Shown here: positions 15,937 through 62,558 of the stretch, piece after piece
How positions within the stretch are numbered: position 1 is the stretch's first letter
How the letters are laid out: the number at the start of each line of letters is the position of its first letter
From: a virus
IMG/VR virus record: IMGVR_UViG_3300028844_006119
Coordinates: 64,001 to 128,000 of that record
Length of the DNA stretch: 64,000 bases
Direction: 5' to 3' (one strand)
Notes under the pieces: model-generated
Database searches by the model: none
Seen by the model: only the letters and a program-made list of their open reading frames with translations
What the model was told of the DNA's origin: nothing
Position numbers and translations under genes: made by a program

Positions 15937-16727
15937 TGTCCTTGTTCAAGGACGAGCAGGCTCATCCATTGATCCTCCTCAGGAAGTACCTGGGGATGTT
16001 CGGCATTGACGCCCTGGAGTGGGAGCCGCCCGTGATCAAGAGCTCGGTAGAGGATGAGACGGGGACTTCAATCGCCCGGATCAACCTGCTGAAGCTCATG
16101 GCCGCCATCGCCGTGGCCAATCACGATTCGTTCTGGAAGGACTGGCAGACGTTCCACTTCCTTACCGCTGCCTTGAACAACAACATCCCATCCGCCGCAG
16201 TCCTGTCGGATCAGACCGTGGGACAGATGATGACCGCGGTAGACATCGCGAACACCATACGTAAAGACTTGGGGAAGGCCACGTCAGTGCCTTCCTTTGG
16301 GGAGAAAGTCGCTCGGTACATCGCAGCGCAGGCCCTCGAGTCTGGAATTTGGTACCTGCCGTCCCCTCTAGGCTTCGCAAACAAGTACTGTGCCGGGCTC
16401 ATGCAGCGGTGCGGGAGATGCAGTAATGAGGAGGAGCGTCAGGATGACGGGCTCTGTAGTTATTGTACGGAGAGGTACAGCATGGACTCCCTGCAGAAGA
16501 TGGAGCCAGATCCCGACCTGGCAGGGCAATGGGACGCATCTAAGGTGAAGCCTTTTACCCTGCACCCATACGAGGGAGTAAGTCAGCGCCTGACCGAAGC
16601 TCTCACCCATAAGGACGTGGTCCTGGGGGAGACTCAGGATGACATCTGCGCCGCTAAACTGCTGACCGGACTGGAGTACATGAGCTATAGAAGGGCTCAA
16701 CTCAGGTCTCAAGGGGCGACTCAGTGA
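15936..16727 (+). CDS. Hypothetical protein with a CxxC...CxxC insert
   Basis: ORF coupled to its neighbours; CGRC...CSYC. Confidence 0.7.
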   Translation: MSLFKDEQAHPLILLRKYLGMFGIDALEWEPPVIKSSVEDETGTSIARINLLKLMAAIAVANHDSFWKDWQTFHFLTAALNNNIPSAAVLSDQTVGQMMTAVDIANTIRKDLGKATSVPSFGEKVARYIAAQALESGIWYLPSPLGFANKYCAGLMQRCGRCSNEEERQDDGLCSYCTERYSMDSLQKMEPDPDLAGQWDASKVKPFTLHPYEGVSQRLTEALTHKDVVLGETQDDICAAKLLTGLEYMSYRRAQLRSQGATQ

Positions 16728-17689
16728 TTTCCAGCGGCTCCCTCTTTTTCTTCAGCGACGAAATACAAAAGTGTGCAGGCATGCCTGCGCCTCAGCAAGC
16801 GCAGCAACCTGAGAAGAAACAGAGCTTTCTCTCCAGGAACAAGATGACTTTGGGAGCCGGCGCTCTTGCCGCAGGGATGATCCTAAAGAACCCCCAGGCA
16901 GCCTCCAAGTACCTGGGCCAAGTGAAGCAGATGGTCACTAACCCTAAGGCAGCCCTTCAGCGTGGCTGGAGATCTGGCTCATCCAACATCACCGGCAAGG
17001 TCCCCGGGGCCTCCGAGTCGGCGTCCAAGAGAGTCAGACTGTACAAGGACGTCTTAAGCTCGGCCGAGCAAGGCAAGCTTCAGTCCGTCAAATCCCTCGA
17101 CACTATTGGCGCGGGGGGAACTTCTGCGAGAGCTTCGGGCTGGGGAAGCGCGGGTAGGTCGTTCAGTAGAGCAGGACAAGAGCTAAAGATGTCCCCCGAT
17201 CTCACTAAGAGAGTGGGAGACATGCAAGCCAAGCTCAAGGCCGGAGAAGAAGTCTCAGAGCAAGCCTTGAAGGGCCTTTATGCTGAGATTCAGGGTGCTG
17301 GAAAGGGCCTTAAGATGAGGAAGGGCCTGTCGTACTATGCCCCTGGAGAGCGTACGATGATGACAGGTCTGGGCACAGGTCTGGGGGCAACGGCGGGCCT
17401 TGAGACCCACGATGCGGAAACAGGACGCAAGAGGGGCGTGGCGGAGCGAGTTGCTCGCGGGACTGTCGGTGCTGCGACTGGCACCGCGATGTCCTCCCTA
17501 TTCATGGGACGAGGCGCAAGGCTCAGCAGCAAGAACTTATTCACAGGAAATAGAGGCTCTCTGCTCAGCCAAAAGGGACTTCTGCCAGTCGCGGCAACGA
17601 CTCCCCTACTGGTGGGTACTGAGGCCGCTGGGGAGGTCGCGGGGAAGGGCGGAGAGCTGGCCGACAGAGCCTTTGGACAGAAATCATGA
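16724..17689 (+). CDS. Leader-bearing (FFFSDEIQKCA) basic, Gly-rich putative internal virion protein
   Basis: Shared leader motif, followed by Lys/Arg-rich sequence with Gly-rich hydrophobic segments. Confidence 0.65.
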   Translation: MISSGSLFFFSDEIQKCAGMPAPQQAQQPEKKQSFLSRNKMTLGAGALAAGMILKNPQAASKYLGQVKQMVTNPKAALQRGWRSGSSNITGKVPGASESASKRVRLYKDVLSSAEQGKLQSVKSLDTIGAGGTSARASGWGSAGRSFSRAGQELKMSPDLTKRVGDMQAKLKAGEEVSEQALKGLYAEIQGAGKGLKMRKGLSYYAPGERTMMTGLGTGLGATAGLETHDAETGRKRGVAERVARGTVGAATGTAMSSLFMGRGARLSSKNLFTGNRGSLLSQKGLLPVAATTPLLVGTEAAGEVAGKGGELADRAFGQKS

Positions 17690-38786: not shown

Positions 38787-39494
38787 TTATGCCGTGTTTT
38801 CTCCCCTTTTTAAGATCTTACGGAATAGGGCATCTGAGGTCGTAGAGGTCCCTACGTGCTGCCCCTCCAACTCCGGGGCGACGGCCCCCGCAAGCTCTCC
38901 GTAGATAAACGCGCTGATCCGCAACTTTCTTCGGGAGGATGCCAATATTTTGTGGAGCCCCTGCAGCTCCAGGGAAGCCGCATACTCTGGCCGAGTAACG
39001 ACAAACCCCATCATCATGGTGCAGAGCCGCAAGAATGTTCTCCAGGGGTGGATATCGGAGGTCTGCCCTGCCATCACTACGAAGTCATCCTCGGAGAGCC
39101 TGTCGAAGATCTCTACCCACGGAGCGATCTCCGTCGTCTCCCAGGCTCCTCTCTTCGTGTGGGCCACCGCAAACGTATACAGCTCTGAAGAGTAGGAGGG
39201 GCTCAGCCCCAGTGCCGCATCCTTCGCGTCTAAGATTCTAAGGACGACCTCCATGTGCGACTCCAGCCGGCGCACCTTAGAGCGCAGGCGAATCAGCTCC
39301 TGCCTGGAGACGACAGGGGACGCGGAGTCCATGTCTTCTTTCAGGTCCTGGACCTCCTCCGGGCGAAGGTATACGCTCCGGCCCTTCTTCTCCTTGGACA
39401 GCAAGCCTTTTTTGATATAGTTTCTGACGGTCCTGTCGGTTACTGAGAGGAACCTAGCTGCGTCCTGTAGCGTCATCATGTTATCGTGACTCAT
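38787..39494 (-). CDS. MerR/excisionase-type HTH DNA-binding protein
   Basis: MTLQDAARFLSVTDRTVRNYIKKGLL...VYLRPEEV, then a coiled coil. Confidence 0.8.
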   Translation of the reverse strand: MSHDNMMTLQDAARFLSVTDRTVRNYIKKGLLSKEKKGRSVYLRPEEVQDLKEDMDSASPVVSRQELIRLRSKVRRLESHMEVVLRILDAKDAALGLSPSYSSELYTFAVAHTKRGAWETTEIAPWVEIFDRLSEDDFVVMAGQTSDIHPWRTFLRLCTMMMGFVVTRPEYAASLELQGLHKILASSRRKLRISAFIYGELAGAVAPELEGQHVGTSTTSDALFRKILKRGENTA

Positions 39495-39512
39495 CCCTAC
39501 TCCGGGCGGTTC

Positions 39513-40394
39513 ATGTTTGGTTTAAGCATCACTAAAGACGATCTGAGAGAGCTGGCCTCCTGTGCCGCTACAGATTTTCTTGAGACTAAGACCCCGCTCA
39601 CCGAAGCGGTAGTCAAGGTCGCAAGTGGCTGCGAGAGGGATCTTACCTCAGAACACGTTCGCCGCATCTGTGAGATGACCTATCACGACGCGTATGAGAG
39701 ACTGCACAAGTCTGCCTCGGCTGCCGACAGGTACATTACTTTCGACCCGCCGGACGCGCCTACAGCAATTGGCATGCTTCGGGCTAAGAAGGTAGAATCC
39801 ATGCACAAGGCGGCCAGCTTTGCAGGAGCCGGAACCATGATCGATAAGACCGCAAGCGCCCCACACCGGACCAAGTTTCAGGCTGCGAATGCCTTTGACG
39901 CTCTGATGAAGACCGCCTCTGTCGAGGAAGAGGGTGTCGACCATCGATACTTGCACCGTATCCGTCAGGATCTCAAGGAGGCAGTGGCCTCGGTAAGCTC
40001 TGAGCACGCTGGCGTTGTGGTTGCGGCCGACCTGGAGATGGGCTCCCTGATCAAGGAGGCGTACTCCTCCTACCGAGATGGGTACTCCGTGGAGGAGATC
40101 CTGCACGCGTGCTTCTCCGGGGCGGACCTGTCCGAGATCCCTAGATCTGCCTCCGTCAAGGTGGCCTCCATCCTCTCTGCTGAGCTGGCAAGAAAGGCCG
40201 TGAAGACCGCAGGTCTCGGAATCAACAAGACTGCCTCTCTCGGGGAAGTCGATCCTACACACCCGCTGCCCTCCCGCTTTACGAAGGCGGCGCAGCTAGA
40301 GACTGAGCGGGCACATCTGGAGCTTACTCTGTCGGACCTCAAGCGGGACCGGGACGGTTTCCGTAAAAAGGTCGAGTCTCTGTATGACCGATAG
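39513..40394 (+). CDS. Head core/scaffold-like protein with about 10 K-x-A sites
   Basis: VKVAS, HKSAS, HKAAS, DKTAS, MKTAS, IKEAY, VKVAS, VKTAG, NKTAS, TKAAQ. Confidence 0.7.
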   Translation: MFGLSITKDDLRELASCAATDFLETKTPLTEAVVKVASGCERDLTSEHVRRICEMTYHDAYERLHKSASAADRYITFDPPDAPTAIGMLRAKKVESMHKAASFAGAGTMIDKTASAPHRTKFQAANAFDALMKTASVEEEGVDHRYLHRIRQDLKEAVASVSSEHAGVVVAADLEMGSLIKEAYSSYRDGYSVEEILHACFSGADLSEIPRSASVKVASILSAELARKAVKTAGLGINKTASLGEVDPTHPLPSRFTKAAQLETERAHLELTLSDLKRDRDGFRKKVESLYDR

Positions 40395-40677
40395 CCTGCT
40401 AACTCCCCAAGTCATGACGGCGTTCTCCGACGAGATCGAGAAGCTCGCCTTCTCCGTAATTGGCCGGGCGGCTAAGGGAGCTGCGGACATGGGGTTTAAG
40501 GGCGTCGGTTCCGTGGCTAAGGCAGCGGTAAACAACCCCAAAGCGGCTCTCATGGGAACCGCAGCACTCGGCGCAACCGGCCTCGGGGGAGCCCACGTAC
40601 TTAAGAAGTCCAGGCAGGGCTTTGAGGCCCAGAGTATGGGCTCTCTTCCTGGCCGGCATGGTACTTTAACCACATAG
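40384..40677 (+). CDS. Leader-bearing (AFSDEIEKLA) cationic glycine-zipper peptide
   Basis: Leader followed by FSVIGRAAKG...TAALGATGLGGAHVLKK. Confidence 0.7.
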   Translation: MTDSLLTPQVMTAFSDEIEKLAFSVIGRAAKGAADMGFKGVGSVAKAAVNNPKAALMGTAALGATGLGGAHVLKKSRQGFEAQSMGSLPGRHGTLTT

Positions 40678-40687
40678 GAGTCTAATC

Positions 40688-41209: not shown

Positions 41210-41218
41210 AGGTCTGAT

Positions 41219-43192
41219 TTGGACAAGTACGCGCTATACCCCGGAAAGGCTGCTGACGGCCGGCCCAGAGTTCACCTGGTTGAGCCGGGTACTGGGTATG
41301 GTATGGCCAGTACTGACGGAGTCACCAAGACCGCGTCGGGAGAGCACCTTCCGGAAGTCATGGAGCTTATTGAGTCGATCGAGGCGCAGCCCGGAAGGCT
41401 GTACTTGGTCAACTCAGCTCTGGGTGCTGGGGAGAACGTTGGGTTCAATCTTCGAGGTGACTGGTTCACTGAGAAGGGCCTGAATCACACTCCTCCCGGA
41501 TTCGAGCAGATCCCGGTGTGGGATATCGAAGCGCGGAGAAAAGCCGCAAACATCACAGAGGCTGTGCCTCGGTGGGGGTCTTTGGCGTGGGGCTACCCTA
41601 CGTTCTACAACGCGCATAGATTCCGGCACCACGTCAACAAGGACCCAAACAAAGCCTACGGATTCATTCTGGGGGCTTTTTGGGATGACCGTATGAAGCG
41701 GGTCATCCTGGTGTCTGAGCTGATTAAGACCATGTGCGCCAAGATGGGGGCTCTTGATCTGTACAACCGGATCCAGGGTGGGGACTTTCCAGACTCCAGC
41801 ATGGGCAGCAAGGTCCCGTACGACCGATGCGCTATTTGTAACCACCATGCCCGCACACCAATGCAGTATTGTGAGCATGTCCGTAAGGGAGCTTCTCCTC
41901 CCTATGGAATGAAGTCCATGCTCCCGGACGGGCGTATCTGCGGTGTTTACAACGACTACCCGAGATTCTTCGACGATTCATTTGTGTTTGTCGGGGCCGA
42001 GCGATCTGCGAAGGTGATGTCGGATGTCACGAATCAGGTCTCGGGGAGAAACGCGTACTCCCAGAAGATCTACCCGTTCTCGCGCCCCATCCAGAAGATT
42101 GCTTCTGCAGCCGGGGTAGCGGATGTAACTCCTATCTCTGATGCTCCGTCTCCGCAGACGCAGAAGCCGAACATCCCGGACTTTGTTTTAGAGGAAAAAC
42201 TTACTCGGGCTGTCCAGCTGATTCCCGTAAGCACCTCTGCTGAGCGAGAGACGCTTAGATTCTTCATGCAAGAGCGCCTAGCGGAGGAAAGAGTCCGTGC
42301 GGGGACAATGTCCTCCACTGAGATGCAGATGTGGAAGGACCTCTCGCGGAACGTATTACTGAGGCAGTACGGGGTCTCCCCAGAGCAGATGGTCCACCTA
42401 AAGGTACTGTTCAACACCCGAGCAAATCAGGTACTTGGGATTACTAAGGTTGCGGAGATGCCCAAGTGGGCAGAGATTCTGAAGAGAATCCCCGCCCCCT
42501 CTCCGGAGCACATGAGCATCGTGCGTAGAGAGGAGAAGTGCCTCCCCGAGATTCCTAGAGAAATCCTGGACGAAATCGCAGATGCTCCTGGGCCAAATCT
42601 CCGTGCTGCAGCACGGATGGGCATCGTGGCCCGTCCCAATGAGTTCCAGTACATCATGCTGCGGCAAAGAGACCCGGACTTAGCGAGTAGACTCCACACG
42701 AATAGAGTGGTATTTCGCCCTACTTCCCTTCGTAGGGAGACATCAGCGTTCAATACGGGCTATGTCCCTCGCGACACTATGCACTCCATCATCCATAAGT
42801 TGGCACCTCTTATAGCCTCACGCTCCTTTGCGCCTTCGGCTATTAGAGCGCGGATCATTAAGATCACGCCCATGCCTAAGATCGCAGAGTTCTCAGAGAC
42901 CGAGAACTTGGATGAGGTCTCAGAGCTATACAATCAGTATCGCCTGGGGCTTATGCTATCTCCTACAGACCTCACGGCAGTGACCGTGCCCTCTGTTTTC
43001 TCCGATAGAATCGATGACGATGTGAAAATTGCCGGTGATTCTGTTAGTCTTTCTGCCCTAATGACGAGCCTTGCCTATTGGCCCGGTTTACAGTTAGGAT
43101 TAAACTCGGCTGAGGGGTCCTCCTCCGAAGACGCCACCCACTCTCAACCCCATATTGGAGAAATCCATCATGTCACTCCTTACGGAGCTTGA
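41219..43192 (+). CDS. Prohead (capsid maturation) protease
   Basis: NLRGDWF, FRHH, DSSMG followed by CAIC..YCEH, FFDDSFVFVGAE; lies upstream of the scaffold and capsid genes; carries its own KTAS/KIAS sites. Confidence 0.7.
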   Translation: MDKYALYPGKAADGRPRVHLVEPGTGYGMASTDGVTKTASGEHLPEVMELIESIEAQPGRLYLVNSALGAGENVGFNLRGDWFTEKGLNHTPPGFEQIPVWDIEARRKAANITEAVPRWGSLAWGYPTFYNAHRFRHHVNKDPNKAYGFILGAFWDDRMKRVILVSELIKTMCAKMGALDLYNRIQGGDFPDSSMGSKVPYDRCAICNHHARTPMQYCEHVRKGASPPYGMKSMLPDGRICGVYNDYPRFFDDSFVFVGAERSAKVMSDVTNQVSGRNAYSQKIYPFSRPIQKIASAAGVADVTPISDAPSPQTQKPNIPDFVLEEKLTRAVQLIPVSTSAERETLRFFMQERLAEERVRAGTMSSTEMQMWKDLSRNVLLRQYGVSPEQMVHLKVLFNTRANQVLGITKVAEMPKWAEILKRIPAPSPEHMSIVRREEKCLPEIPREILDEIADAPGPNLRAAARMGIVARPNEFQYIMLRQRDPDLASRLHTNRVVFRPTSLRRETSAFNTGYVPRDTMHSIIHKLAPLIASRSFAPSAIRARIIKITPMPKIAEFSETENLDEVSELYNQYRLGLMLSPTDLTAVTVPSVFSDRIDDDVKIAGDSVSLSALMTSLAYWPGLQLGLNSAEGSSSEDATHSQPHIGEIHHVTPYGA

Positions 43193-44123
43193 ATCACGGG
43201 GCGTCACAGCTGAGGATCTTGAGAAAGCGGCATCTGTCCGTTTATTTGAGAAGGCTGCTGCCGCCGAAGACGTGGATCTCGGCTCACTTGATGAAAATCA
43301 GGTAGAAGACCTCTACGTCACATTCCTTTCCAACCAGTCCAATGATGACTACACAAAAGAGGCTTCCGCCATGAACGACGAAATCGTTGACCTTTTCGAA
43401 AAGACCGCTGCAGCCGAGGGCATTGACCTCGACGACATGGCGGACCACGAGCTTGCTGAGCTCTACAACCACTACGTTGAGAACGTTCTGCCCGAGCAGG
43501 TCGAAGAGTACGAGAAGGGTGCTTCGTACGAGGTCGACGAGGCCACCGAGAAGCTCGCTGAGGCCGAGATTCTCGGTCGCCACATGGCGCGTGCCTACAT
43601 GGATGAGTTCGACAAGGAGGCTGCGAGCGCAGCAGCGGCCGGTGCCAGACTGGACGCTGCTGCGGCCGAGGCCGGACGATGGGGCCAGTCGGGCAAGGTC
43701 GAGGCGCAGAACGCCGCGAACCGTGCCAAGGAATCGATTGGACGAGGCTACGAGTCTGCCAAGGCGAAGGGCAAGGCTGGCTATGAAGCTGGTGTCCGTG
43801 GTGCTAAGGCCACTGGTGCCGCAGTTGCTTCCGGTGCTCGGTCCTACGGCAATGCTATGACTGGTAAGCAGTTGCGAGAGGCTGTCTCCACCATGCGTAA
43901 GCAGAAGGGTGGATATCGATCTTCCGCAATGGGCCGCGGTAAGGCCCTTCGTGGCGGTGCCAAGACGCTAGCCGCATGGGGCGCAACCGGTGCAGCTGGC
44001 TACGGCGCCAAGAAGGGCTACGACAGGATGACCAAGAAGTCCTCGATTGACGAGATCATTGAGGACCGCGCCAACGAGCTTCTCGGAGAGTTCCTCTTCG
44101 AGAGCGGTGTCGAGCTGGACTGA
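43170..44123 (+). CDS. Acidic scaffold-like protein with internal repeat and an embedded cationic cassette
   Basis: LFEKAAAAEDVDL / LFEKTAAAEGIDL repeat; basic Gly/Ala segment between KEA and KKS. Confidence 0.7.
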   Translation: MSLLTELESRGVTAEDLEKAASVRLFEKAAAAEDVDLGSLDENQVEDLYVTFLSNQSNDDYTKEASAMNDEIVDLFEKTAAAEGIDLDDMADHELAELYNHYVENVLPEQVEEYEKGASYEVDEATEKLAEAEILGRHMARAYMDEFDKEAASAAAAGARLDAAAAEAGRWGQSGKVEAQNAANRAKESIGRGYESAKAKGKAGYEAGVRGAKATGAAVASGARSYGNAMTGKQLREAVSTMRKQKGGYRSSAMGRGKALRGGAKTLAAWGATGAAGYGAKKGYDRMTKKSSIDEIIEDRANELLGEFLFESGVELD

Positions 44124-44125
44124 GA

Positions 44126-44413
44126 GTGGAAATGCCTGCCAACACAGACATCATGAGATTCTTCTCAGACGAGATCTGTAAGTTGGCAGGCATGCCCGCA
44201 CTCAAGGTTCCGGGCATGGGCAGTAAGGGACAACTATCTTCATTGATGGCCCGACCTGCCCATGCCCAGGCCGGTAACTTCGCAAAAGCACAAAAAGCAC
44301 TGAAAACACCCACCACAGGAAGCGCCCCGAAAGGGATTAATCATGCTTCGTTAAAGGCGGTGGGCTCCACGGGATCTGTATCTTTACCGCCACCTCCCGT
44401 GAAAACCGTCTAA
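44126..44413 (+). CDS. Leader-bearing (FFSDEICKLA) basic peptide
   Basis: Shared leader; Lys/Pro-rich cargo without acidic residues. Confidence 0.65.
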   Translation: MEMPANTDIMRFFSDEICKLAGMPALKVPGMGSKGQLSSLMARPAHAQAGNFAKAQKALKTPTTGSAPKGINHASLKAVGSTGSVSLPPPPVKTV

Positions 44414-44437
44414 ACTTCCCACTTTTAGGGTGACCCA

Positions 44438-45178
44438 ATGAGCAACTACCGAAGCATGATTGATGACGCACTCCAGAGTGCAAGAGCCCGTATCGATGGC
44501 GGCAGCGCAGATCTGATGAAGACCGCTTCTGCCCCCGAGAACAGCATGGTCAAGGAGGCGTCCGAACTCGCAGACGCCCTTGAGTATGTTGCCCACGCCT
44601 CTACGAACACTGGCTCCGCCGCTGACGCTGTTCGTGGCGAAATGGTTCGTTCCTTCTTTAAGAGCGCGGCAGGCGCTCCTGCCCAGAGCAGCACATCTGT
44701 TCAGGGCACCCAGGCACACGCCCCCACTGGAAAGAAGATCCAGGCAAAGGGCCAGTCTGTCGGAGGCTCGGCTCCTCAGTCGGAGACCACTCCCGCCCCC
44801 GCAGATGGCCAGAAGCCGCTGCTCGAGTCCTTCAAGCAGGCAGAGGGTCAGTCTCTCTACGACATCCTGATGGCCAGTAAGACCGCAGGCAAGGGTGGCC
44901 CCTCCGAGAGCACGGCTACTGAGTCTGCTCAGGGCATTCCTTCTGGTAACGAGAACTCCAACCGTCAGGCGATTCTCGAGAGCAACGAGGCTCCGGTCAA
45001 CGCGACCCGCCGTCAGGCTAAGGCTCCCGTCCGTAAGCGCCTCGCGGAGGCGTTTGCCCACACGAACAGCACCACTGGCGACTCCACGCTGAATGCAATG
45101 TTCCCTCAGGCCGCAGGTAAGGGATCCCACAAGATCGCCTCCGTGAAAGATCGGCTGAGCGCAATGGCTGGTGAGTAA
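44438..45178 (+). CDS. Scaffold/core-like low-complexity protein
   Basis: MKTAS, VKEAS, FKSAA, SKTAG, HKIAS. Confidence 0.7.
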   Translation: MSNYRSMIDDALQSARARIDGGSADLMKTASAPENSMVKEASELADALEYVAHASTNTGSAADAVRGEMVRSFFKSAAGAPAQSSTSVQGTQAHAPTGKKIQAKGQSVGGSAPQSETTPAPADGQKPLLESFKQAEGQSLYDILMASKTAGKGGPSESTATESAQGIPSGNENSNRQAILESNEAPVNATRRQAKAPVRKRLAEAFAHTNSTTGDSTLNAMFPQAAGKGSHKIASVKDRLSAMAGE

Positions 45179-45485
45179 TATGTCCTCTATTAGAGACAGG
45201 CTTGAGAAGATCGCTGCTGCCAAGGACGATAAGGGTGACCTCGCCCTTTATGTCTCTAAGAAGCTCTCGGAGAAAAGAGCATCCGTTGCGGAGTACTCTG
45301 TGCTCTTCGATAAGGTTGCCTCCGGTGACCTAGGAGAGCACACCCGTCAGGCCCTACTCGGCATCTGCGACACGATCCCAGAACCCACTACTCTTTCGGA
45401 AAAGACAGCATCTGTGTATGATGTTATGGACTTTTCTGAGAATGACGCAAGAAGAGCTAGACTAGATCAGCTCCTAAAGCGTTAA
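45171..45485 (+). CDS. Small core-like protein
   Basis: EKIAA, EKRAS, DKVAS, EKTAS in 104 aa. Confidence 0.7.
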   Translation: MSNMSSIRDRLEKIAAAKDDKGDLALYVSKKLSEKRASVAEYSVLFDKVASGDLGEHTRQALLGICDTIPEPTTLSEKTASVYDVMDFSENDARRARLDQLLKR

Positions 45486-45509
45486 ACTTCCTTCCGCCGG
45501 AGAATTAAC

Positions 45510-45875
45510 ATGATGAAGATCGGGAATGCACAGCTTGCTGCTGTCTCCGCAAAGGGGGCGGCGACTATCCGTACTCTGGTGGAGAAAGTCGCTAGCTTGG
45601 AGACGGAGAACGTCTCCCTCCGAACAAAACTAGCTTCTATTGCGCGCGACTCTCAGATCTCTGAGCTTGCACGCGAGATGGAAGACAAGAGCCTTAATGT
45701 TGACATGACTTTCGAAGAAAAGGTTGCACACCTGCGGGGTCAGGCAAACCTAGAGAACGTCACTGAAGCAGTAAAGATGGCGAGCGCGGGCCATGTCCGA
45801 CTTGCCGATGTTTCCGACCATCCCGGGACGGGAGCGATCGACCCACTCACCTCTTTCTGCCTTTCCGGCGAATAA
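45510..45875 (+). CDS. Coiled-coil scaffold-like protein
   Basis: EKVAS, TKLAS, EKVAH, VKMAS. Confidence 0.7.
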   Translation: MMKIGNAQLAAVSAKGAATIRTLVEKVASLETENVSLRTKLASIARDSQISELAREMEDKSLNVDMTFEEKVAHLRGQANLENVTEAVKMASAGHVRLADVSDHPGTGAIDPLTSFCLSGE

Positions 45876-46531: not shown

Positions 46532-47668
46532 ATGGATTATTCCGCTGAAATGGTGAATTCGGGCTTCATTGAGCGCCTCGAGACTGAGGGTTCCACGAAG
46601 ACCGCCGCCGCCTCTCTCAACTACATCAAGGATCGCCTGCGCGAGTCCAGCTTTGCCGACATGATCGTTCCGAACGAGCGTGTTGTGCGTGGCGACTTGC
46701 AGCGCAGCACCCAGCACGACACCCTCGTGAAGATCGTCGACATCGAGCCGGGTTCCCGCGCGATGGCCGTCAACTTCCGTGGTCAGCCTACCGCTGAGTA
46801 CGTGTCTGGTAAGCGCTACGCAATCGGCTTCTTCACCATCTCGAGCCTCAAGTTCGAAATCGTGGAGCAGGAGCTGATGGCATACGAGATGCCCGTCACC
46901 CGCATCATCGAGGAGAACAGCCTCAAGGACATGGTCGAGGTCAAGGATCGCGAGTTCCTGAACCACGTCGAGTCCTGCATCGATGCAATGCAGAGCGAGG
47001 GTGGTATCACCACCTTCAACACCTCGACTTGGACAGCTGGTTCCCAGTTCTCGAAGATCAAGGGCTCTCTGGCTCTGCAGCAGACCACCGACAACTTCAA
47101 CGTCCAGGCAATCCAGCGGACTGACATTGTGGAGCTCAAGAAGCTTCTCAAGCGTCAGGTGCTTGATAGCTCCGGTAACGTGGTTCGTCAGGGTCGTCTT
47201 CGTCCCGCGCTGATGCTCATGACTGAGTCCGACGCTGACGACTTCGATCAGTGGACTCACGAGGACTACGGTGATCGTCTCCAGAGCGAAACCGCTCTCG
47301 ACGGCTACACCTACAACAAGGTCCTCGGTCTGCGCATCGTCCGTACCATCAAGAACGACATCCTGCGTGAGGGCAACGTTTACGTGTTCACCGCACCGGA
47401 GTTCTTCGGCCGGAACTACACGCTGAACGATGTCAAGTTCTACATCGATAAGATTGCGAACCGCATCTTCTGGCAGGCATGGATGGACGTGGGCATGGGC
47501 TTCGGCAACATCGCCTCGGTCGTCAAGCTTGAGCTCTACTCCGGTAGTGTCAGTGGCACGCCGGATTCCGGCTTTGCTGCAGCGATGCCGACTGACGAAG
47601 AGAACCTGGGTGGCCAGAACAACAAGGCCGCTGATGGTCTGACCTACCCGAGCCTCAACATCTTCTAG
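46532..47668 (+). CDS. Major capsid protein (HK97-fold expected)
   Basis: 378 aa; follows the protease/scaffold genes; AGGAG RBS; strongly biased codons; followed by a terminator. Confidence 0.75.
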   Translation: MDYSAEMVNSGFIERLETEGSTKTAAASLNYIKDRLRESSFADMIVPNERVVRGDLQRSTQHDTLVKIVDIEPGSRAMAVNFRGQPTAEYVSGKRYAIGFFTISSLKFEIVEQELMAYEMPVTRIIEENSLKDMVEVKDREFLNHVESCIDAMQSEGGITTFNTSTWTAGSQFSKIKGSLALQQTTDNFNVQAIQRTDIVELKKLLKRQVLDSSGNVVRQGRLRPALMLMTESDADDFDQWTHEDYGDRLQSETALDGYTYNKVLGLRIVRTIKNDILREGNVYVFTAPEFFGRNYTLNDVKFYIDKIANRIFWQAWMDVGMGFGNIASVVKLELYSGSVSGTPDSGFAAAMPTDEENLGGQNNKAADGLTYPSLNIF

Positions 47669-57635: not shown

Positions 57636-58334
57636 ATGGCATCTCTTTCTCAGTGGTCTCCGTACGAGGACAACGTCCAGGGCGGCATGTCCGACGGGCG
57701 CTTCATGAACGCCGCATACACGGTCGTGTGTGCAGGCCCTCCTCGCCTCTCCCAGGTCGGCGGTCCCGAGTTCCTCGGCGCTGCCCTGGCTGCCGGCTCC
57801 GGTACCGAGGACATGCTCGCGTACCCGATTGGCGTGATTCAGAACTTCAATCTGAGCCACAACATGCAGCTGAGCCGGATCTTTGAGCTCGGCTCTGTCC
57901 GGTCGTACTTCATCCCCGGTCGGGTGATGGGTCAGATTGGTCTTGGTCGCGTGCTGTACCACGGCCCGTCGCTTCTGCGCGTGCTGTACGCGTACTACAC
58001 CGACATCATCCCGCCCACGTTTGTGGATCCGGTCTTCTCGAACATTGGCGCTGCTACGGTCGCCAACCCGCACGATGTCATCATCCCGCCGGGCTACGAG
58101 AACATCTTCCTCAACCTGGCTTCGGACCTCTTTACTCAGCCTGTCGGTCTGCTTCTCCTCATGAAGGACAGCAACGAGGACACTCTGGGTGCTGGTTACT
58201 TCGAGTCGTGCTACATCCCCAACCACAGCATCTCTACTGACGCCATGGGCACGCTCATCCAGGAGCAGGCCGGTGTGCAGTTTGAGCGCATGGTTCCCGT
58301 CAACACCGAGGTTGTCGGCCTAATCACCGGATAA
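57636..58334 (+). CDS. Tail tube protein
   Basis: IGVIQNFNLS...IFELGS...FIPG...SCYIPNHSIS...IQEQAGVQFE; downstream of the sheath gene. Confidence 0.75.
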   Translation: MASLSQWSPYEDNVQGGMSDGRFMNAAYTVVCAGPPRLSQVGGPEFLGAALAAGSGTEDMLAYPIGVIQNFNLSHNMQLSRIFELGSVRSYFIPGRVMGQIGLGRVLYHGPSLLRVLYAYYTDIIPPTFVDPVFSNIGAATVANPHDVIIPPGYENIFLNLASDLFTQPVGLLLLMKDSNEDTLGAGYFESCYIPNHSISTDAMGTLIQEQAGVQFERMVPVNTEVVGLITG

Positions 58335-58344
58335 AGGAAGAGAC

Positions 58345-58587
58345 ATGAATAAGATCGCAATGTACGAAGAGCTGCTCGAAAATCACCCTCTCTGGAGCAA
58401 AGAAGGAGGCATTAGTTCGGGGCTGAAGGCCCTGAAGGCCTCCGGTCTGAAGGCCTCCGGTCTGAAGGCGGGGACGGCTAAGAAGATGCTTGCAGCACGA
58501 CCGATGTCGCAGGGGGGGTCGCAGAGATGGATGATGAAGAGCACACCATCGCTGAGGCAGAATGTCGGGTCTCTTTTCAAGAGGTAG
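58345..58587 (+). CDS. Leader-bearing (MNKIAMYE) cationic peptide with LKASG repeats
   Basis: Leader ending in SKEG, followed by GLKALKASGLKASGLKAG. Confidence 0.65.
   Translation: MNKIAMYEELLENHPLWSKEGGISSGLKALKASGLKASGLKAGTAKKMLAARPMSQGGSQRWMMKSTPSLRQNVGSLFKR
58424..58470 (+). repeat. 15-bp coding tandem repeat CTGAAGGCCTCCGGT
   Basis: Two full copies plus partial copies. Confidence 0.75.
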
Positions 58588-58594
58588 GTAAGCG

Positions 58595-58882
58595 GTGGAT
58601 CTTGAAGTCCTACATTTCTTCTCTGATGAGGTGGAGAAGACTGCGTCTGGCCCGTGGAATCAGAACGCTGGCGCGTTCGCAAGTGTCGCCGGGGAGCTGG
58701 ACGATGGCGGCGGGTTCACTGTCTCTGATCTTCGGAAGTACCTGCGCTACCCACAGTCGCGATCCTCAGTTCAGCGACCTACTAAGCCTACGGTGATGTG
58801 GACCTCCTCGGATGCAGAGGACTGGCTCATCTTCAGCCCAAACAAGCACCGGGCGTTTGTTCGCTGGGCTAGAGGCAAATGA
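58595..58882 (+). CDS. Leader-bearing (MDLEVLHFFSDEVEKTA) small protein
   Basis: GTG start; leader duplicated in the next gene. Confidence 0.7.
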   Translation: MDLEVLHFFSDEVEKTASGPWNQNAGAFASVAGELDDGGGFTVSDLRKYLRYPQSRSSVQRPTKPTVMWTSSDAEDWLIFSPNKHRAFVRWARGK

Positions 58883-59127
58883 TGGATCTCGAAGTCTTAC
58901 ATTTCTTTTCTGATGAGGTGGAGAAGCTCGCAGCGAAGAGTCGGCACAACTACTACATGCGGAATCGTAATCAGATTCTGCAGAAGCAGCGTCAGTACCG
59001 AGCCAAGAACAAGGCCGGTATTGCACGCAGGCAGAAGATGTACCGGCGGAAGGTAAAGATGGGCGCGCATAGACAGCGTAAGCGCATCTCTACGGGCCAC
59101 TCCTACACCTACGGCGGGTACAGATAG
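58879..59127 (+). CDS. Leader-bearing (MDLEVLHFFSDEVEKLA) protamine-like peptide
   Basis: Cargo is very rich in Arg/Lys/Tyr and has no acidic residue. Confidence 0.7.
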   Translation: MMDLEVLHFFSDEVEKLAAKSRHNYYMRNRNQILQKQRQYRAKNKAGIARRQKMYRRKVKMGAHRQRKRISTGHSYTYGGYR

Positions 59128-60062
59128 TGGATGTCCCTGACCTATTCGACCAGAAGAGGAAGAAGGTCTCTGGGCTAAAGATGCCCAGGCAGTTTACTCC
59201 GCGGTTACCCGGCGCATCCACTAAGGGGCAGGCTCCCATAAACCCGTTCTCAGGAAATAAGATGAAGGTCGCATCCCTGTCTTCTTTCCGAGAAGCTCAG
59301 CTCATAAAGACTGCCTCTGCGGAAGACGCTCATCTCTACTTTGAGATGTGCAAGCTTGCGGATACTGGGGATGAGCTTAAGATTCGCATGTTCCTAGCGC
59401 AGCATCCTGAGATGGAGAAAGACGCTGGGATCATCGGCCACGGCTTCAGGCTGCTGAGTAAGGCCCTGGGAGGGGCAGGTAAGACTTTCAACAGTAGCCG
59501 CTTGACTGCCGCCGCAGGCAAAGCTGAATACGCAGCAGCAAAAAGGTTCAGCGGGGCGGCGGTAAATCCTAGAAACCTAGGGCAGGCCGCTAAGGAAACC
59601 CAGTACGCCTCTCTAGCGGGAGCTTCTGGTAAGCGGGGAGGGGAGCTCACCGCTGCCGCAAAAAACATCCGAGAAGCCAAAGCCGTCAAATCTCAGGTAA
59701 ATGCTGGGCAGTTTGCTGCACCTGCTGCGGCTCCTGCTCCCTCTAACGTCGTCCCTGGCGCCCCTTCCGCGTTTAAGGGACAGCCGGACAAATATGTAAA
59801 GGCATATGCGGACGTCGGGGATGAGACAGCTAAGAGGACCCTGGCCGGCAGAGTAAGTGAGAAGCAGCTCGAAGCTGTCGCGAAGACCGCTCCTACTCCT
59901 AAGACGGAGCTGCTCTCGAACAGTACTCTCGGCAAGGCCATCGTGGGCACGGCCGCCGTAGGCGGGGTCGGGGCTGTGGGCTACGGAGGCTACAAGGGCG
60001 TTCAGCGCGGAAAGGCGCAGAACCTGCAGCAGCAGGCTCGCGGGTTCAACTACGGGATGTAG
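59127..60062 (+). CDS. Putative internal virion protein with K-x-A sites and C-terminal glycine zipper
   Basis: MKVAS, IKTAS, CKLAD, EKDAG; AAVGGVGAVGYGGYK. Confidence 0.7.
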   Translation: MDVPDLFDQKRKKVSGLKMPRQFTPRLPGASTKGQAPINPFSGNKMKVASLSSFREAQLIKTASAEDAHLYFEMCKLADTGDELKIRMFLAQHPEMEKDAGIIGHGFRLLSKALGGAGKTFNSSRLTAAAGKAEYAAAKRFSGAAVNPRNLGQAAKETQYASLAGASGKRGGELTAAAKNIREAKAVKSQVNAGQFAAPAAAPAPSNVVPGAPSAFKGQPDKYVKAYADVGDETAKRTLAGRVSEKQLEAVAKTAPTPKTELLSNSTLGKAIVGTAAVGGVGAVGYGGYKGVQRGKAQNLQQQARGFNYGM

Positions 60063-60364: not shown

Positions 60365-62215
60365 TCATCGGCCCATGTGTGACTCAATCATAACCCGAGC
60401 GCTCTCTTCGAGGGCCTTGGGCAGATCGGGTACGGTTGCTACAAGCCCGTAGCGCCCCACACCAAAGGCATTGTCGTAGTAGTCAGAGTTCTGAGATCCA
60501 ATGCCCAGAATCGATACCACGATCCCATCTACTCGCATCTCCCGAAGGACTGCGTGAAGGTCTTCTACGGCGTTCCCGGTGCTTCTCCGCCCTCGGCAGC
60601 TAGTCGGGAACCCGTCTGTAATCATCAAGACGGCCCTATCTGTCTTGGCCGTCTTGGCCCATTCCCAGGCGGCATCCAAGGCCTGGACCATAGAGGTCAT
60701 CCCCATTGTAAGTCCGGGGACGTTCTTTGGGCTGCCCACCTTGGAGAAGAAGAAGAGCTCGGAAGAGAACCCCCAGAGCTGAAGTCGGACATTCACTCCC
60801 TTGCAGGCAAAGTCGATATTAGCGACTGCCTGGTCCAGGAGGTCCATGCCCCACCCAGCCATGGACCCGGACACGTCCATCAGGACCAACAGGTCCATGC
60901 CTCCGTACTTACGAGTCTCCTTAAAGAGCTTGGTCGTAGAAAACGAGTTCGAGATCTTTGCGTTGATCACGGACTCAATGTCCAGGTCTTGCCCTGTCCA
61001 GGCCCTACGCATCTCCTTCTTCATCTTCACGTTCTCGAGATGCCTGCGCATGCGGGCCGCCCGAGGCGTGGGACTAGGAAGTCTCTGGGAGGGGGTGACC
61101 ATAGATCCCCGAATGCCGGAGACCTTGGCTGCAGACAGGAGGATGTCCTCTTGCCCACGCTTTCGGCTCTTCTTAGCCTTCCCCAGCTCCTTCTTGGCTA
61201 CCTGAATTCGGGAGAACATCTTCTCAGTCCCGCTCTTTAGGAGCTTCTCCAGGGAAGAGTCTTCCTTCGAGCCGTCCTTTCCGGTCTTGCTGTCATCGTC
61301 CTTGGCTGTCATCAGCTTCTGGATCTCAAGCAGCTTCTTGGCGGAGACCTTCTTCTTCCTCTTCCTGCCAGTAGGGTCATTCTCGGGCTGGAGGTCTTTC
61401 CCTCCAAGTGGATTGTCCTCGTTATCCCCGTGGCCTTTTCCCGAATCTCCCATGTTGGAGATGGCCTTGTTCAGCAGGTCCAGCTTCATCTGCTGCTGTT
61501 GCTGTCGGGTGCTGTTTTGCTGCGGATCTGGCGGGAACTGCTTCAACAGCTCATCGGCGATGTCGTCGACTAGGCGGGACGTAAGGGCAATACACGCCTT
61601 GTTGTCTACAAGCTCTACTCTCGAGCGAGCAATCTTCATATGCTTGGCACATGCCTTGAACTCATCGGGAGCGCCAGGGGTCTCCACCCCGGCAGCGATT
61701 CTTCCCAGGTAGGAGATCAAGTCCTTCTCAGCCTGATCCTCCATGTCGTTTGCCGCAATGTCATGCCATCTCTGCCGAAGAAGGTCTGCACCTCCAGCGT
61801 ACAGTTCTCCCCACACCGAACAGCACCGCCAGTCCTCCAGGACGTTCCACAGGTGATGAACCAGGCCCTCCAGCTTAGCTGTATAGGGAATGGCGTCCGG
61901 GTGGGTCTTGGGAATGCTGGCTTTCTTCAGTAGCCGCTCTACCGCCTTCTCACGGAAAGCCTCCGTCAGCTCGAGGTCTGTGCCCCCGAATGGGTGGCTG
62001 ATCTCATGCTCCAGGATGAGGTATGCCTCCGGGTCTTGGAGAGGCACCCGGAAGAATGTGGCGCAGTCTGTGCTTCCAGACGGGGCATTGACCAGGTCAA
62101 AGTCCTTCCCCATCATCTTAGAGAAGGTGGCCGTGAGGATCTGCATACGTTCCAGCAGTTCCCCAGGCGTCCCTCCCATTGCCCCCAGGTCGAGGGGGGT
62201 TCGATTACCAGTCAT
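60365..62215 (-). CDS. vWA-domain protein with N-terminal HExxH motif (MoxR partner)
   Basis: LEHEISH, NVLED; MIDAS DVSGSM, T, ITDG. Confidence 0.85.
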   Translation of the reverse strand: MTGNRTPLDLGAMGGTPGELLERMQILTATFSKMMGKDFDLVNAPSGSTDCATFFRVPLQDPEAYLILEHEISHPFGGTDLELTEAFREKAVERLLKKASIPKTHPDAIPYTAKLEGLVHHLWNVLEDWRCCSVWGELYAGGADLLRQRWHDIAANDMEDQAEKDLISYLGRIAAGVETPGAPDEFKACAKHMKIARSRVELVDNKACIALTSRLVDDIADELLKQFPPDPQQNSTRQQQQQMKLDLLNKAISNMGDSGKGHGDNEDNPLGGKDLQPENDPTGRKRKKKVSAKKLLEIQKLMTAKDDDSKTGKDGSKEDSSLEKLLKSGTEKMFSRIQVAKKELGKAKKSRKRGQEDILLSAAKVSGIRGSMVTPSQRLPSPTPRAARMRRHLENVKMKKEMRRAWTGQDLDIESVINAKISNSFSTTKLFKETRKYGGMDLLVLMDVSGSMAGWGMDLLDQAVANIDFACKGVNVRLQLWGFSSELFFFSKVGSPKNVPGLTMGMTSMVQALDAAWEWAKTAKTDRAVLMITDGFPTSCRGRRSTGNAVEDLHAVLREMRVDGIVVSILGIGSQNSDYYDNAFGVGRYGLVATVPDLPKALEESARVMIESHMGR

Positions 62216-62558
62216 TTTCTTTCTTCATCCTCTCCTTAATTGCCCCAGCGATTGCCCAGGCCTTTGGCTTGCGCCGGTAGCTGATGACGGTCCAGTGCCC
62301 CATGGGGGCATCGGACTCGAGCATGGACGTCACATCCTCCGTGTACTGCTCCTGGGCCTCCGCCTCGCACTGTCGGAGTAGCTTACTGCTCCTTCGAGAC
62401 CGCTCCATTCTGCGAAGTTCGCCCTCCAAGAGATACTCCGCTTCCTCCTCTACGCAGGTGTTGAGATACTGAAGGACCGAGTCCATGTCGGCCTTCCTTG
62501 CCCGGTTGGTGAACCACCCGGTCAGCTCTTCGAAAGTACCGAACATGCGGGCTCCCAT
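62205..62558 (-). CDS. Hypothetical protein
   Basis: ORF between the ATPase and vWA genes. Confidence 0.65.
   Translation of the reverse strand: MGARMFGTFEELTGWFTNRARKADMDSVLQYLNTCVEEEAEYLLEGELRRMERSRRSSKLLRQCEAEAQEQYTEDVTSMLESDAPMGHWTVISYRRKPKAWAIAGAIKERMKKENDW

What the first reader, a model, noticed from the sequence alone, without database searches (positions are those of the whole stretch)
58595..58932. Duplicated 45-bp leader cassette in adjacent genes differs only at silent positions
Seen: 58595-58639 and 58882-58926 both encode MDLEVLHFFSDEVEK and match at 41 of 45 nt. The four differences (GTG/ATG start, CTT/CTC, CTA/TTA, TTC/TTT) do not change the peptide. Similarity ends right after the K-x-A site. 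Inference: the leader is copied as a unit onto new cargos and selected at the peptide level. The shared DNA could also act as a recombination handle for swapping cargos.
Basis: seen in the sequence. Interest (0 to 1): 0.8.

Follow-up and report, generated by a model that had tools for sequence, protein, structure and literature searches.

The report
Portable phage head-protein leader, freshly duplicated
Two neighbouring genes of an uncultured 142-kb phage start with the same 15-residue leader because a 287-bp insertion put a new orphan cargo behind the resident leader, and that leader probably works like phage T4's capsid-targeting tag, ending in a site (Lys-x-Ala) that the phage's head-maturation protease is predicted to cut.

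Summary
Bases 58595-58639 and 58882-58926 match at 41 of 45 nt and encode the same 15 residues. The only differences are the start codon and three silent changes.

The pair belongs to a larger family. At least seven genes of this 142-kb phage carry the leader (...FFSDE[IVL]xK-x-A). Their cargos are unrelated to each other and all are basic. Other first-reader notes of this scan, on this same genome, had already flagged the wider family and the K-x-A motif. I tested both here.

The nearest relative (L049) has a single leader gene at this site. The window therefore carries a 287-bp insertion: the 95-aa orphan cargo plus one leader copy, with breakpoints inside the leader.

Leader dN/dS is 0.09-0.14, as low as the cargo's.

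The leader ends in K-x-A-[S/A/G]. That motif is strongly over-represented only in head-module proteins, here and in the cultured Salmonella phage Arash. It clusters around a protein whose N-terminal domain has the T4 gp21 / herpesvirus assemblin fold (Z 9.4).

Best reading: a T4-like capsid-targeting propeptide with a new, herpesvirus-like Ala|Ser site code. Cleavage and targeting are inferred, not shown. The 95-aa cargo has no homologue and only weak coding signal.

Verdict: a new variant of a known kind.

The parts
58595..58639 (+). Leader copy A: first 15 codons of the 95-aa gene, GTG start. It keeps the ancestral upstream translation-start region.
   Evidence: The 30 nt upstream match relative L049 at 27/30, and the leader matches at 43/45.
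58882..58926 (+). Leader copy B: first 15 codons of the conserved basic-protein gene, ATG start. It keeps the ancestral downstream sequence.
   Evidence: The 15 nt after the Lys codon are identical to L049. Its three non-start differences from copy A lie at positions 9, 16 and 27.
58640..58926 (+). The 287-bp insertion relative to the nearest relative: 242 nt of orphan cargo and spacer plus one 45-nt leader copy. The register is ambiguous within the repeat, so 58595-58881 is equivalent.
   Evidence: blastn of L049 against the window: L049 1-556 aligns up to window 58639, and L049 513-800 aligns from window 58883. Nucleotide comparison.
58595..58882 (+). 95-aa gene: leader, then K-T-A-S, then an orphan basic cargo (pI 10.0).
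   Evidence: No homologue among 5.8e9 proteins, in the genome or relatives, or in metagenome contigs. Coding score is 0.16-0.22 per codon, against 0.59 +/- 0.19 for genes and at most -0.23 for off-frames. Its stop overlaps the next start (ATGA). The ESM Atlas model has pLDDT 0.41.
58882..59127 (+). 81-aa gene: leader, then a very basic conserved cargo (pI 11.8, 33% Lys+Arg).
   Evidence: 26-sequence alignment A4 shows a conserved leader, an indel-prone junction right after K-L-A-x, and a conserved cargo. pI.
16724..17689 (+). 321-aa gene with leader ...SLFFFSDEIQKCA-G.
   Evidence: Its cargo is orthologous to a leader-bearing gene in relative G002 (E = 4.5e-8).
40384..40677 (+). 97-aa gene with leader ...MTAFSDEIEKLA-F and a Gly/Ala-rich basic cargo.
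44126..44413 (+). About 93-aa gene with leader ...MRFFSDEICKLA-G. The start is uncertain: 44126, 44132 or 44153.
   Evidence: Its cargo is orthologous to a leader-bearing gene in G001 (E = 1e-5).
41219..43192 (+). 657-aa protein. The N-terminal domain (residues about 54-284) has the T4 gp21 / herpesvirus assemblin protease fold. K37-T-A-S and K293-I-A-S flank the domain. The C-terminal 360 residues are unassigned.
   Evidence: Model pLDDT 87. VIA-align gives 5jbl_B Z 9.4, rmsd 2.8 A over 131 residues, then 35 herpesvirus assemblin entries at Z 5.3-8.6, then unrelated folds at about Z 4. There are 2279 homologues. K37 and A39 are at least 90% conserved, and H138, S194 and D202 are invariant. 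Both flanking sites fall in the low-confidence stretches 31-40 and 292-300. PHROG head maturation protease, E = 1e-4.
46532..47668 (+). Probable major capsid protein with ...EGSTK-T-A|AAS at residues 23-25.
   Evidence: PHROG major head protein, E = 5e-5. Sequence. 1162 homologues. The N-terminus is conserved throughout, so the site's conservation is not discriminating.
39486..40394 (+). 302-aa head-module protein with 8 K-x-A-[SAG] sites (0.72 expected); 11 of its 20 Lys are in K-x-A.
43155..45875 (+). Block of acidic, scaffold-like head-module genes (43155-44123, 44438-45178, 45171-45485, 45510-45875), each enriched for K-x-A-[SAG].
   Evidence: Observed against expected: 6 vs 1.38, 5 vs 1.01, 4 vs 0.21, 4 vs 0.37, all with shuffle p of 0.003 or less. 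Site list.
58345..58587 (+). 80-aa gene (MNKIAMYEELLENHPLW...) just upstream. It is present in L049 and is part of the variable stretch between the 232-aa gene and the basic gene.
57636..58334 (+). Conserved 232-aa gene used as the anchor to fetch syntenic loci.
   Evidence: 11 loci at 37-91% identity.

Best explanation
The 45-nt repeat encodes a roughly 17-residue acidic N-terminal propeptide (hydrophobic-x-x-F-F-S-D-E-[IVL]-x-K-x-A). This phage clade places it in front of small, basic, mutually unrelated proteins. The leader ends in K-x-A followed by Ser, Ala or Gly. That motif also litters the scaffold-like head proteins, sits near the N-terminus of the capsid protein, and flanks the catalytic domain of the phage's own gp21/assemblin-fold prohead protease. 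The most likely mechanism (inferred) is that the leader takes the cargo into the assembling prohead. The protease then cuts after the Ala, frees the basic cargo inside the head beside the DNA, and the acidic leader is discarded. This is how T4's capsid-targeting sequence works. The duplication itself is shown by comparison: a 287-bp insertion placed an orphan cargo directly behind the resident leader and its translation-start region, and left a second leader copy in front of the resident basic-protein gene. Because the junction falls inside the leader, is in frame and rebuilds K-T-A-S, recombination between leader sequences is the likeliest route (inferred).
For: SHOWN. The repeat is real and not chance. 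The nearest relative L049 has one leader gene. Copy A keeps the ancestral upstream sequence (27/30) and copy B the ancestral downstream sequence (15/15). Both share a derived Leu-to-Val change absent from 11 relatives. Seven leader genes occur in this genome, seven in G002, and others in G001 and G005. Cargos are unrelated within the genome, but three leader-cargo pairings are conserved between genomes. One cargo module occurs with the leader in G002 and without it here. Leader dN/dS is 0.09-0.14, and in G002 8 of 8 differences are silent. All seven cargos have pI 9.9-12, against a proteome median of 5.6 with 12.7% this basic (P = 5e-7). K-x-A-[SAG] is enriched over shuffles only in 9 genes, mostly one contiguous head block. 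The same holds around the protease homologue of the cultured phage Arash. The protease fold matches T4 gp21 at Z 9.4. K-x-A-S sites sit in the disordered stretches on both sides of the protease domain, and K37/A39 are conserved in 45 homologues. In 26 orthologues the junction right after K-L-A-x is the only indel-prone stretch. PRECEDENT. T4 internal proteins share only a capsid-targeting sequence (PMC3012670). T4 propeptides of 10-20 residues end at the protease motif, and SPN3US gp53/gp54 share an identical 15-residue N-terminus (PMC5694885).
Against: No proteomic or biochemical evidence exists for cleavage or packaging in this clade, and there is no cultured member. The Arash paper did not analyse processing. 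The protease domain has no Pfam hit, and its catalytic residues were not checked by superposition. Some leader copies in relatives are internal rather than N-terminal, although a K-T-A-S site precedes them. The capsid protein's whole N-terminus is conserved, so its K-T-A is not independent evidence. The 95-aa cargo is an orphan with weak coding signal. An 80-codon open frame has a 5.5% chance in random DNA of this composition.
Confidence: 0.6

Rival explanations
1. The leader is a cleavable propeptide but not a targeting signal. It would serve only as an acidic cap that keeps the very basic cargo harmless or soluble until the head protease removes it, and the cargo would enter the head by other means.
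For: The leader is acidic and every cargo is basic. The cleavage-type motif evidence supports cutting and says nothing about targeting.
Against: Conservation extends well upstream of the site (F8, F9, D11, E12 are nearly invariant), beyond what the 42 general sites share. This suggests a second function. A prohead-confined protease could only uncap what is already inside.
Confidence: 0.15
2. The leader is a permanent, uncut N-terminal interaction helix, for instance one that docks on scaffold, portal or DNA. K-x-A-S would then be a structural repeat of helical head proteins rather than a protease site.
For: No cleavage has been demonstrated. The enriched proteins are helical and scaffold-like. 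Internal copies of the leader exist.
Against: The motif sits in disordered linkers on both sides of the protease domain, at an indel-prone junction and near the capsid protein's N-terminus. It recurs with the same protease family in a phage only 31% identical. P1' is Ser in 28 of 42 sites, like assemblin sites.
Confidence: 0.12
3. The 95-aa ORF is not a working gene. It would be a by-product of an insertion or duplication that happens to stay open behind a functional start region, so copy A is a young relic rather than a leader recruited to a cargo.
For: The ORF is an orphan. Its coding score is weak at 0.16-0.22. The predicted structure is disordered with pLDDT 0.41. The chance of an open frame is 5.5%.
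Against: It is the best of six frames, above every off-frame window. The junction rebuilds x-A-S in frame (P = 0.02). The cargo is basic like all other cargos. It shows ATGA coupling to the next gene. There are 3 silent and 0 replacement changes in the leader since duplication. Other leader cargos also score low, at 0.04-0.42.
Confidence: 0.25
4. What is conserved is a DNA or RNA element, such as a translation-initiation or downstream-box signal or a recombination site, and not a peptide.
For: The repeat includes the start codon and some upstream similarity.
Against: Leaders with the same peptide share only 17-21 of 30 nt in this genome. The differences are silent third-position changes. dN/dS is 0.09-0.14. 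The upstream regions of copies A and B match at only 10/30.
Confidence: 0.04

Closest known systems
Capsid-targeting sequence (CTS) of phage T4 internal proteins (IPI, IPII, IPIII and others), removed by prohead protease gp21
   Same: Both have a short N-terminal leader shared by otherwise unrelated, basic, DNA-associated head proteins. In both, the leader ends in the same protease motif that is found in the capsid and scaffold proteins. The genes are clustered and variable between relatives, and the protease has the gp21/assemblin fold (PMC3012670, PMC5694885).
   Different: There is no sequence similarity to the T4 CTS. The predicted site is K-x-A|S/A/G instead of L/I-x-E|. The protease carries a 360-residue C-terminal extension. 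Nothing here has been shown experimentally.
Giant phage SPN3US gp53/gp54 (and phiKZ gp93): identical 15-residue N-termini containing the A-X-E protease motif
   Same: Both have neighbouring head-protein genes with an identical 15-residue N-terminus that holds a prohead-protease motif, while the rest of the proteins has diverged (PMC5694885).
   Different: gp53 and gp54 are full-length paralogues, whereas the two cargos here are unrelated. The site code differs, cutting after Glu there and predicted after Ala here.
Herpesvirus assemblin (HSV pUL26, HCMV pUL80a)
   Same: Both share the fold (Z 5.3-8.6). Both have an N-terminal protease domain joined through a site-bearing linker to a C-terminal part (PMC4498786, PMC7920273). 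Both place the scissile bond after Ala and before Ser. The HCMV assay substrate ...Asn-Ala-Ser-Ser... appears in PMC13486704, and the (V/L/I)-x-A|S consensus is from my own knowledge.
   Different: This is a phage protein with no detectable sequence similarity to assemblins. It prefers Lys at P3. It has an extra conserved Cys cluster (C204, C207, C218). Its catalytic residues have not been verified.
Salmonella phage Arash gp220-gp226 head module
   Same: Arash has a homologous protease (31% identity), the same K-x-A-[SAG] enrichment in neighbouring structural proteins, and a K-E-A|G site near the capsid protein's N-terminus. Its virion also packages RNA polymerase subunits (PMC10585845).
   Different: It is only distantly related. 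The FFSDE-type leader was not searched for in Arash, and processing has not been described for it.

Membership tests
T4-type capsid-targeting-sequence system | One short N-terminal leader shared by otherwise unrelated proteins | tested here: met
   Seven genes in this genome carry the leader, and their cargos have no similarity to each other. The same holds in relatives.
T4-type capsid-targeting-sequence system | The leader ends in the prohead-protease consensus that also marks capsid and scaffold proteins | tested here: met
   This is met at the sequence level only. All leaders end in K-x-A-[S/A/G/F]. The motif is enriched only in head-module genes and is present near the capsid protein's N-terminus. 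Profile.
T4-type capsid-targeting-sequence system | The phage encodes a gp21-fold prohead protease | tested here: met
   5jbl_B (T4 gp21) at Z 9.4, rmsd 2.8 A over 131 residues, clearly above unrelated folds.
T4-type capsid-targeting-sequence system | Sequence relationship to the T4 CTS and an L/I-x-E site | tested here: not met
   The leader and site are different: FFSDE[IVL]xK-x-A. It works like the T4 system but is not a sequence member of it.
T4-type capsid-targeting-sequence system | The leader is needed and sufficient for encapsidation and is removed in the head | not testable with these tools
   This needs virion proteomics or reporter fusions.
Assemblin / gp21 capsid maturation proteases | Characteristic fold | tested here: met
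Assemblin / gp21 capsid maturation proteases | Catalytic Ser and His in the right places | tested here: inconclusive
   H138, S194 and D202 are invariant in 45 homologues, but they were not superposed on the gp21 or assemblin active site.
Assemblin / gp21 capsid maturation proteases | Match to a curated sequence family | tested here: not met
   No Pfam family at E of 0.01 or less. No PDB sequence match by profile. Only a weak PHROG head-maturation-protease hit, E = 1e-4.
Ordinary tandem gene duplication (paralogous pair) | Similarity along the whole length of the two genes | tested here: not met
   Similarity ends at codon 15. There is no DNA, protein or cross-frame similarity beyond it.

The most novel reading that the evidence does not exclude
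A large, mostly uncultured phage lineage (over 1,000 capsid-protein and over 2,000 protease homologues, with Salmonella phage Arash as a cultured outlier) uses an assemblin-fold prohead protease whose site code is herpesvirus-like (Lys-x-Ala|Ser) rather than the Glu-specific code of T4 and phiKZ. It would pair this with a portable acidic leader that loads arbitrary basic proteins into the head. The window would then capture a leader-mediated cassette insertion in the act, showing that the leader also serves as the recombination handle that diversifies the cargo set.
Probability: 0.4. Interest if true: 0.72.

Novelty: new variant of a known kind. Interest (0 to 1): 0.6.

Why it matters
Leader-directed loading of proteins into phage heads is known in detail only for T4 and, in outline, for phiKZ-like giant phages. 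All of those cut after Glu. This locus shows the same logic in an unrelated and very abundant uncultured lineage, with a different predicted site code. That code resembles the one used by herpesvirus assemblins, which share the protease fold, so it bears on how far the phage-herpesvirus parallel extends.

The comparison with the nearest relative dates one step of cargo acquisition and places its breakpoints inside the leader. That is direct comparative evidence for how such cargo sets diversify.

In practice, the motif allows mature ends and packaged proteins to be predicted for over a thousand metagenomic genomes. Phage Arash offers a cultured system in which to test this. A defined leader could also serve to load foreign proteins into heads, as is done with T4.

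Tried and rejected
1. A strict degenerate DNA pattern for FFSDE[IV]xKxA in IMG/VR found 22 loci. Twenty are an unrelated low-GC prophage regulator with the string near its C-terminus. L029 is a short unrelated ORF. L024 has an N-terminal MAHNPFFSDEVAKAA, but its 46-kb phage lacks the protease, so I treat it as coincidence.

3. I searched for the 95-aa cargo elsewhere. The 5.8e9-protein search returned only the protein itself. blastn and tblastx against the genome and relatives found nothing. The metagenome scan gave two hits that are off-frame, antisense to a bacterial gene, and seeded by my own 8-mer. The ESM Atlas gave no usable hit. Only near-length proteins were searched, so a longer fused relative is not excluded.

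4. Complex prediction on the protease domain plus the leader-bearing basic protein gave no verdict (score 0.01). It counts neither for nor against binding.

5. A profile search of the protease against PDB sequences found nothing. Foldseek alone was weak at E = 0.02. The fold assignment rests on VIA-align.

I therefore could not look for population variants lacking the 287 bp or for expression.

7. The capsid-protein N-termini are too uniformly conserved to test the K-T-A site.

8. Two ideas were considered from memory and set aside. A double-glycine or RiPP-type leader does not fit: there is no Gly-Gly and no transporter or peptidase, and the context is a head module. Host Prp-type cutting after Phe-Phe, as for L27 and phage 80alpha, also does not fit, because conservation continues through K-x-A and the junction lies after the Ala.

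9. PMC2279824 (phage protease / herpesvirus protease homology) is not held.

Full report
**1. The observation**

Bases 58595-58639 and 58882-58926 are identical at 41 of 45 positions, and both encode (M)DLEVLHFFSDEVEK. The differences are:
- the start codon (GTG against ATG);
- three silent changes: CTT/CTC, CTA/TTA and TTC/TTT.

A match this good is expected 5e-11 times per window by chance. Similarity stops after the Lys codon. The following codons (ACT GCG TCT against CTC GCA GCG) both give x-Ala-small, but nothing beyond them aligns at the DNA, protein or cross-frame level.

A separately assembled public contig (L034) is identical over 11.4 kb, so the repeat is unlikely to be an assembly artefact. 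That contig may come from the same sample as the genome.

**2. Context**

The window is bases 64001-128000 of a single 142,186-bp virus contig with 57% G+C. It encodes:
- DNA polymerase A, a primase, a DnaB-type helicase and a single-chain beta-beta' RNA polymerase of 2112 aa;
- a baseplate spike domain and a large terminase;
- a probable major capsid protein.

The capsid protein has 1162 unnamed homologues on contigs of about 140-170 kb. This is therefore a large uncultured phage lineage.

**3. The pair belongs to a family**

The motif ...FFSDE[IV]xK-x-A occurs at the start of five plus-strand genes in the window (16724, 40384, 44126, 58595, 58882). Two looser copies lie elsewhere in the genome (32470 plus strand, about 133170 minus strand). 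Other first-reader notes on this same genome had listed these. I verified them.

Findings on the family:
- **Relatives:** a profile of the leader finds seven N-terminal copies in relative G002 (...AFxSELEKxA), and others in G001 and G005.
- **Cargos:** within this genome the cargos are unrelated to each other, but three leader-cargo pairings are conserved between genomes.
- **Charge:** every cargo is basic (pI 9.9-12), while the proteome median is 5.6 and only 12.7% of ORFs are that basic (P = 5e-7).
- **Portability:** one cargo module occurs with the leader in G002 and without it in the window.

**4. Selection acts on the peptide**

- Across nine orthologues of the basic-protein gene, leader dN/dS is 0.09 pooled and 0.14 among close relatives. 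The cargo's is 0.10.
- Leaders with nearly the same peptide share only 17-21 of 30 nt within this genome.
- In G002, two adjacent leaders identical over 12 residues differ at 8 of 36 nt, all at third positions (P = 8e-6).
- In 26 orthologues the leader is conserved (F8, F9, D11, E12, K15 and A17 nearly invariant). The stretch right after K-L-A-x is the only indel-prone part, and the cargo is then conserved.

**5. How the duplicate arose**

The nearest relative (L049, basic protein 91% identical) has this order: 232-aa gene, then the MNKIAMY... gene, then the basic-protein gene. The basic-protein gene there has a GTG start and the same upstream sequence that precedes the window's 95-aa gene.

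- L049's single leader aligns to both window copies.
- Copy A keeps the ancestral upstream context (27/30 nt).
- Copy B keeps the ancestral downstream context (15/15 nt).
- The window is therefore longer by 287 bp: the orphan cargo plus one leader.
- Both copies share a Leu-to-Val change that none of 11 relatives has.
- Copy B's three non-start differences from copy A lie at positions 9, 16 and 27. Positions 28-45 are identical.
- The foreign DNA starts right after the Lys codon, yet it supplies an in-frame Thr-Ala-Ser, so K-x-A-S is rebuilt. The chance of that is 0.02.

This is what recombination inside a leader would leave, and it is unlikely for a random insertion. A simple local duplication followed by drift is not excluded.

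Other relatives have zero, one or two genes at this position, so the site is variable.

**6. Is the 95-aa ORF a gene?**

For:
- it is the best of six frames (0.16-0.22 per codon, off-frames at most -0.23);
- it inherits a proven start region;
- it overlaps the next gene by ATGA;
- its product is basic, like the other cargos.

Against:
- its coding score is below that of confident genes (0.59 +/- 0.19);
- it has no homologue anywhere;
- an 80-codon open frame has a 5.5% chance in random DNA of this composition;
- the ESM Atlas model is disordered.

I put the chance that it is a working gene at about 70-75%.

**7. The leader's end matches a head-wide motif**

K-x-A-[S/A/G] is over-represented relative to shuffles of each protein in only 9 of 150 ORFs. 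These are the contiguous head block 39486-45875, plus 14713, 30876 and one gene at the window's left edge.

- Examples: 8 sites against 0.72 expected in the 302-aa protein, and 4 against 0.21 in a 104-aa protein.
- The 42 sites give the profile hydrophobic-[E/V]-K-x-A|S-A, and the leaders fit it.
- The capsid protein has ...STK-T-A|AAS at residues 23-25.

**8. The protease**

The 657-aa product of 41219-43192 lies in the middle of this block.

- **Homologues:** its first 275 residues are shared with 2279 proteins.
- **Fold:** a model of residues 1-300 (pLDDT 87) matches the T4 gp21 capsid assembly protease best (Z 9.4, rmsd 2.8 A, 131 of 164 residues). Thirty-five herpesvirus assemblin entries follow (Z 5.3-8.6), then scores fall to about 4 for unrelated folds.
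- **Conserved residues:** H138, S194 and D202 are invariant.
- **Flanking sites:** the two low-confidence stretches of the model (31-40 and 292-300) contain K37-T-A-S and K293-I-A-S, so the domain is bracketed by the motif. K37 and A39 are at least 90% conserved across 45 homologues of 34-78% identity.
- **Layout:** a protease domain, a site-bearing linker and then a C-terminal part recalls herpesvirus pUL26/pUL80a (PMC4498786, PMC7920273). Assemblins cut between Ala and Ser (assay substrate in PMC13486704; the consensus is from my own knowledge). T4, phiKZ and SPN3US enzymes all cut after Glu (PMC5694885).

**9. Independent replication**

The cultured Salmonella phage Arash has a homologue of the protease (31% identity). 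The structural genes around it show the same enrichment:
- gp220: 7 sites against 0.87 expected;
- gp223: 6 against 1.0;
- gp225: 5 against 0.5.

Its capsid protein has K-E-A|G at residues 27-29, and its protease has K-Q-A|A near residue 30. The Arash paper reports these proteins in virions but no processing analysis. In the held literature I found no phage protease described with this site code.

**10. Interpretation**

Shown:
- the repeat;
- the leader family;
- purifying selection on the peptide;
- the insertion relative to the nearest relative;
- the motif enrichment and its replication in Arash;
- the protease fold.

Inferred:
- the protease cuts after K-x-A;
- the leader targets cargo to the prohead;
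- leader-leader recombination made the insertion.

The closest precedents are the T4 capsid-targeting sequence (PMC3012670) and the identical 15-residue N-termini of SPN3US gp53/gp54 (PMC5694885). The system here works like those but is not a sequence member of them. Its site code differs. I class it as a new variant of a known kind.

**11. What did not help**

- The strict DNA pattern scan was mostly off-target.
- The complex prediction gave no verdict.

Noticed in passing
window 20606-26944 (+): A single 2112-aa ORF carries RNA polymerase beta (Rpb2 domains 6-7) and beta' (Rpb1 domains 2, 3, 5) in cellular order, so it is a fused beta-beta' polymerase in a phage. In phage Arash the two subunits are separate genes and are the most abundant virion proteins (PMC10585845).
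   Followed up: partly
window 26941-27363 and 58345-58587 (+); L001 8709 and 9429, L003 8709, and minus-strand genes near the ends of L002, L003, L005 and L006: A second shared N-terminal module, M-[DN]-K-I-A-[AM]-Y-E..LL..HPLW, heads several otherwise different small genes in this genome and its relatives. It may be a second leader type.
   Followed up: partly
window 59127-60062 (+) and L001/L003 8709 ORFs: An internal module...LIK[ST]ASA.E...Y.EMCK.AD.G.E..., is shared between the window's 311-aa protein and differently placed genes in relatives. This suggests module shuffling at this locus.
   Followed up: no
genome 132745-133350 (-), which is window 68745-69350, outside the window; also L039 and L045: The copy MHPDVLHFFRDELEKQA may be internal to a 201-aa ORF. 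In relatives G005 and G001 the matching leader is internal and directly preceded by K-T-A-S, as if in a polyprotein. The ATG at 133170 has a good ribosome-binding site, and a terminator-like hairpin lies just upstream of the longer ORF's TTG start.
   Followed up: partly
The leader class may be broader than the FFSDE type.
   Followed up: no
window 60365-62215 (-) and 62522-63415 (-): A von Willebrand A (CoxE-like) protein and a MoxR/dynein-type AAA ATPase form a conserved pair just downstream on the opposite strand. The pair is also present in relatives.
   Followed up: no
window 41219-43192 product, residues 204-218: An invariant Cys cluster (C204, C207, C218, with nearby His) lies inside the protease domain of all 45 homologues. 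It may be a metal site, which as far as I recall T4 gp21 and the assemblins lack.
   Followed up: no
P0271 (capsid protein homologue, 76% identity): One homologue is named by NCBI as coming from a Schleiferiaceae bacterium MAG. This is a weak hint at a Flavobacteriales host or a binning artefact, and the 57% G+C does not obviously fit.
   Followed up: no
window 58420-58475 (+): The 80-aa gene contains a short in-frame repeat, GLKA(L/S)KASGLKASGLKAG. Its counterpart in L049 differs in length here, so this is an indel-prone repeat.
   Followed up: no
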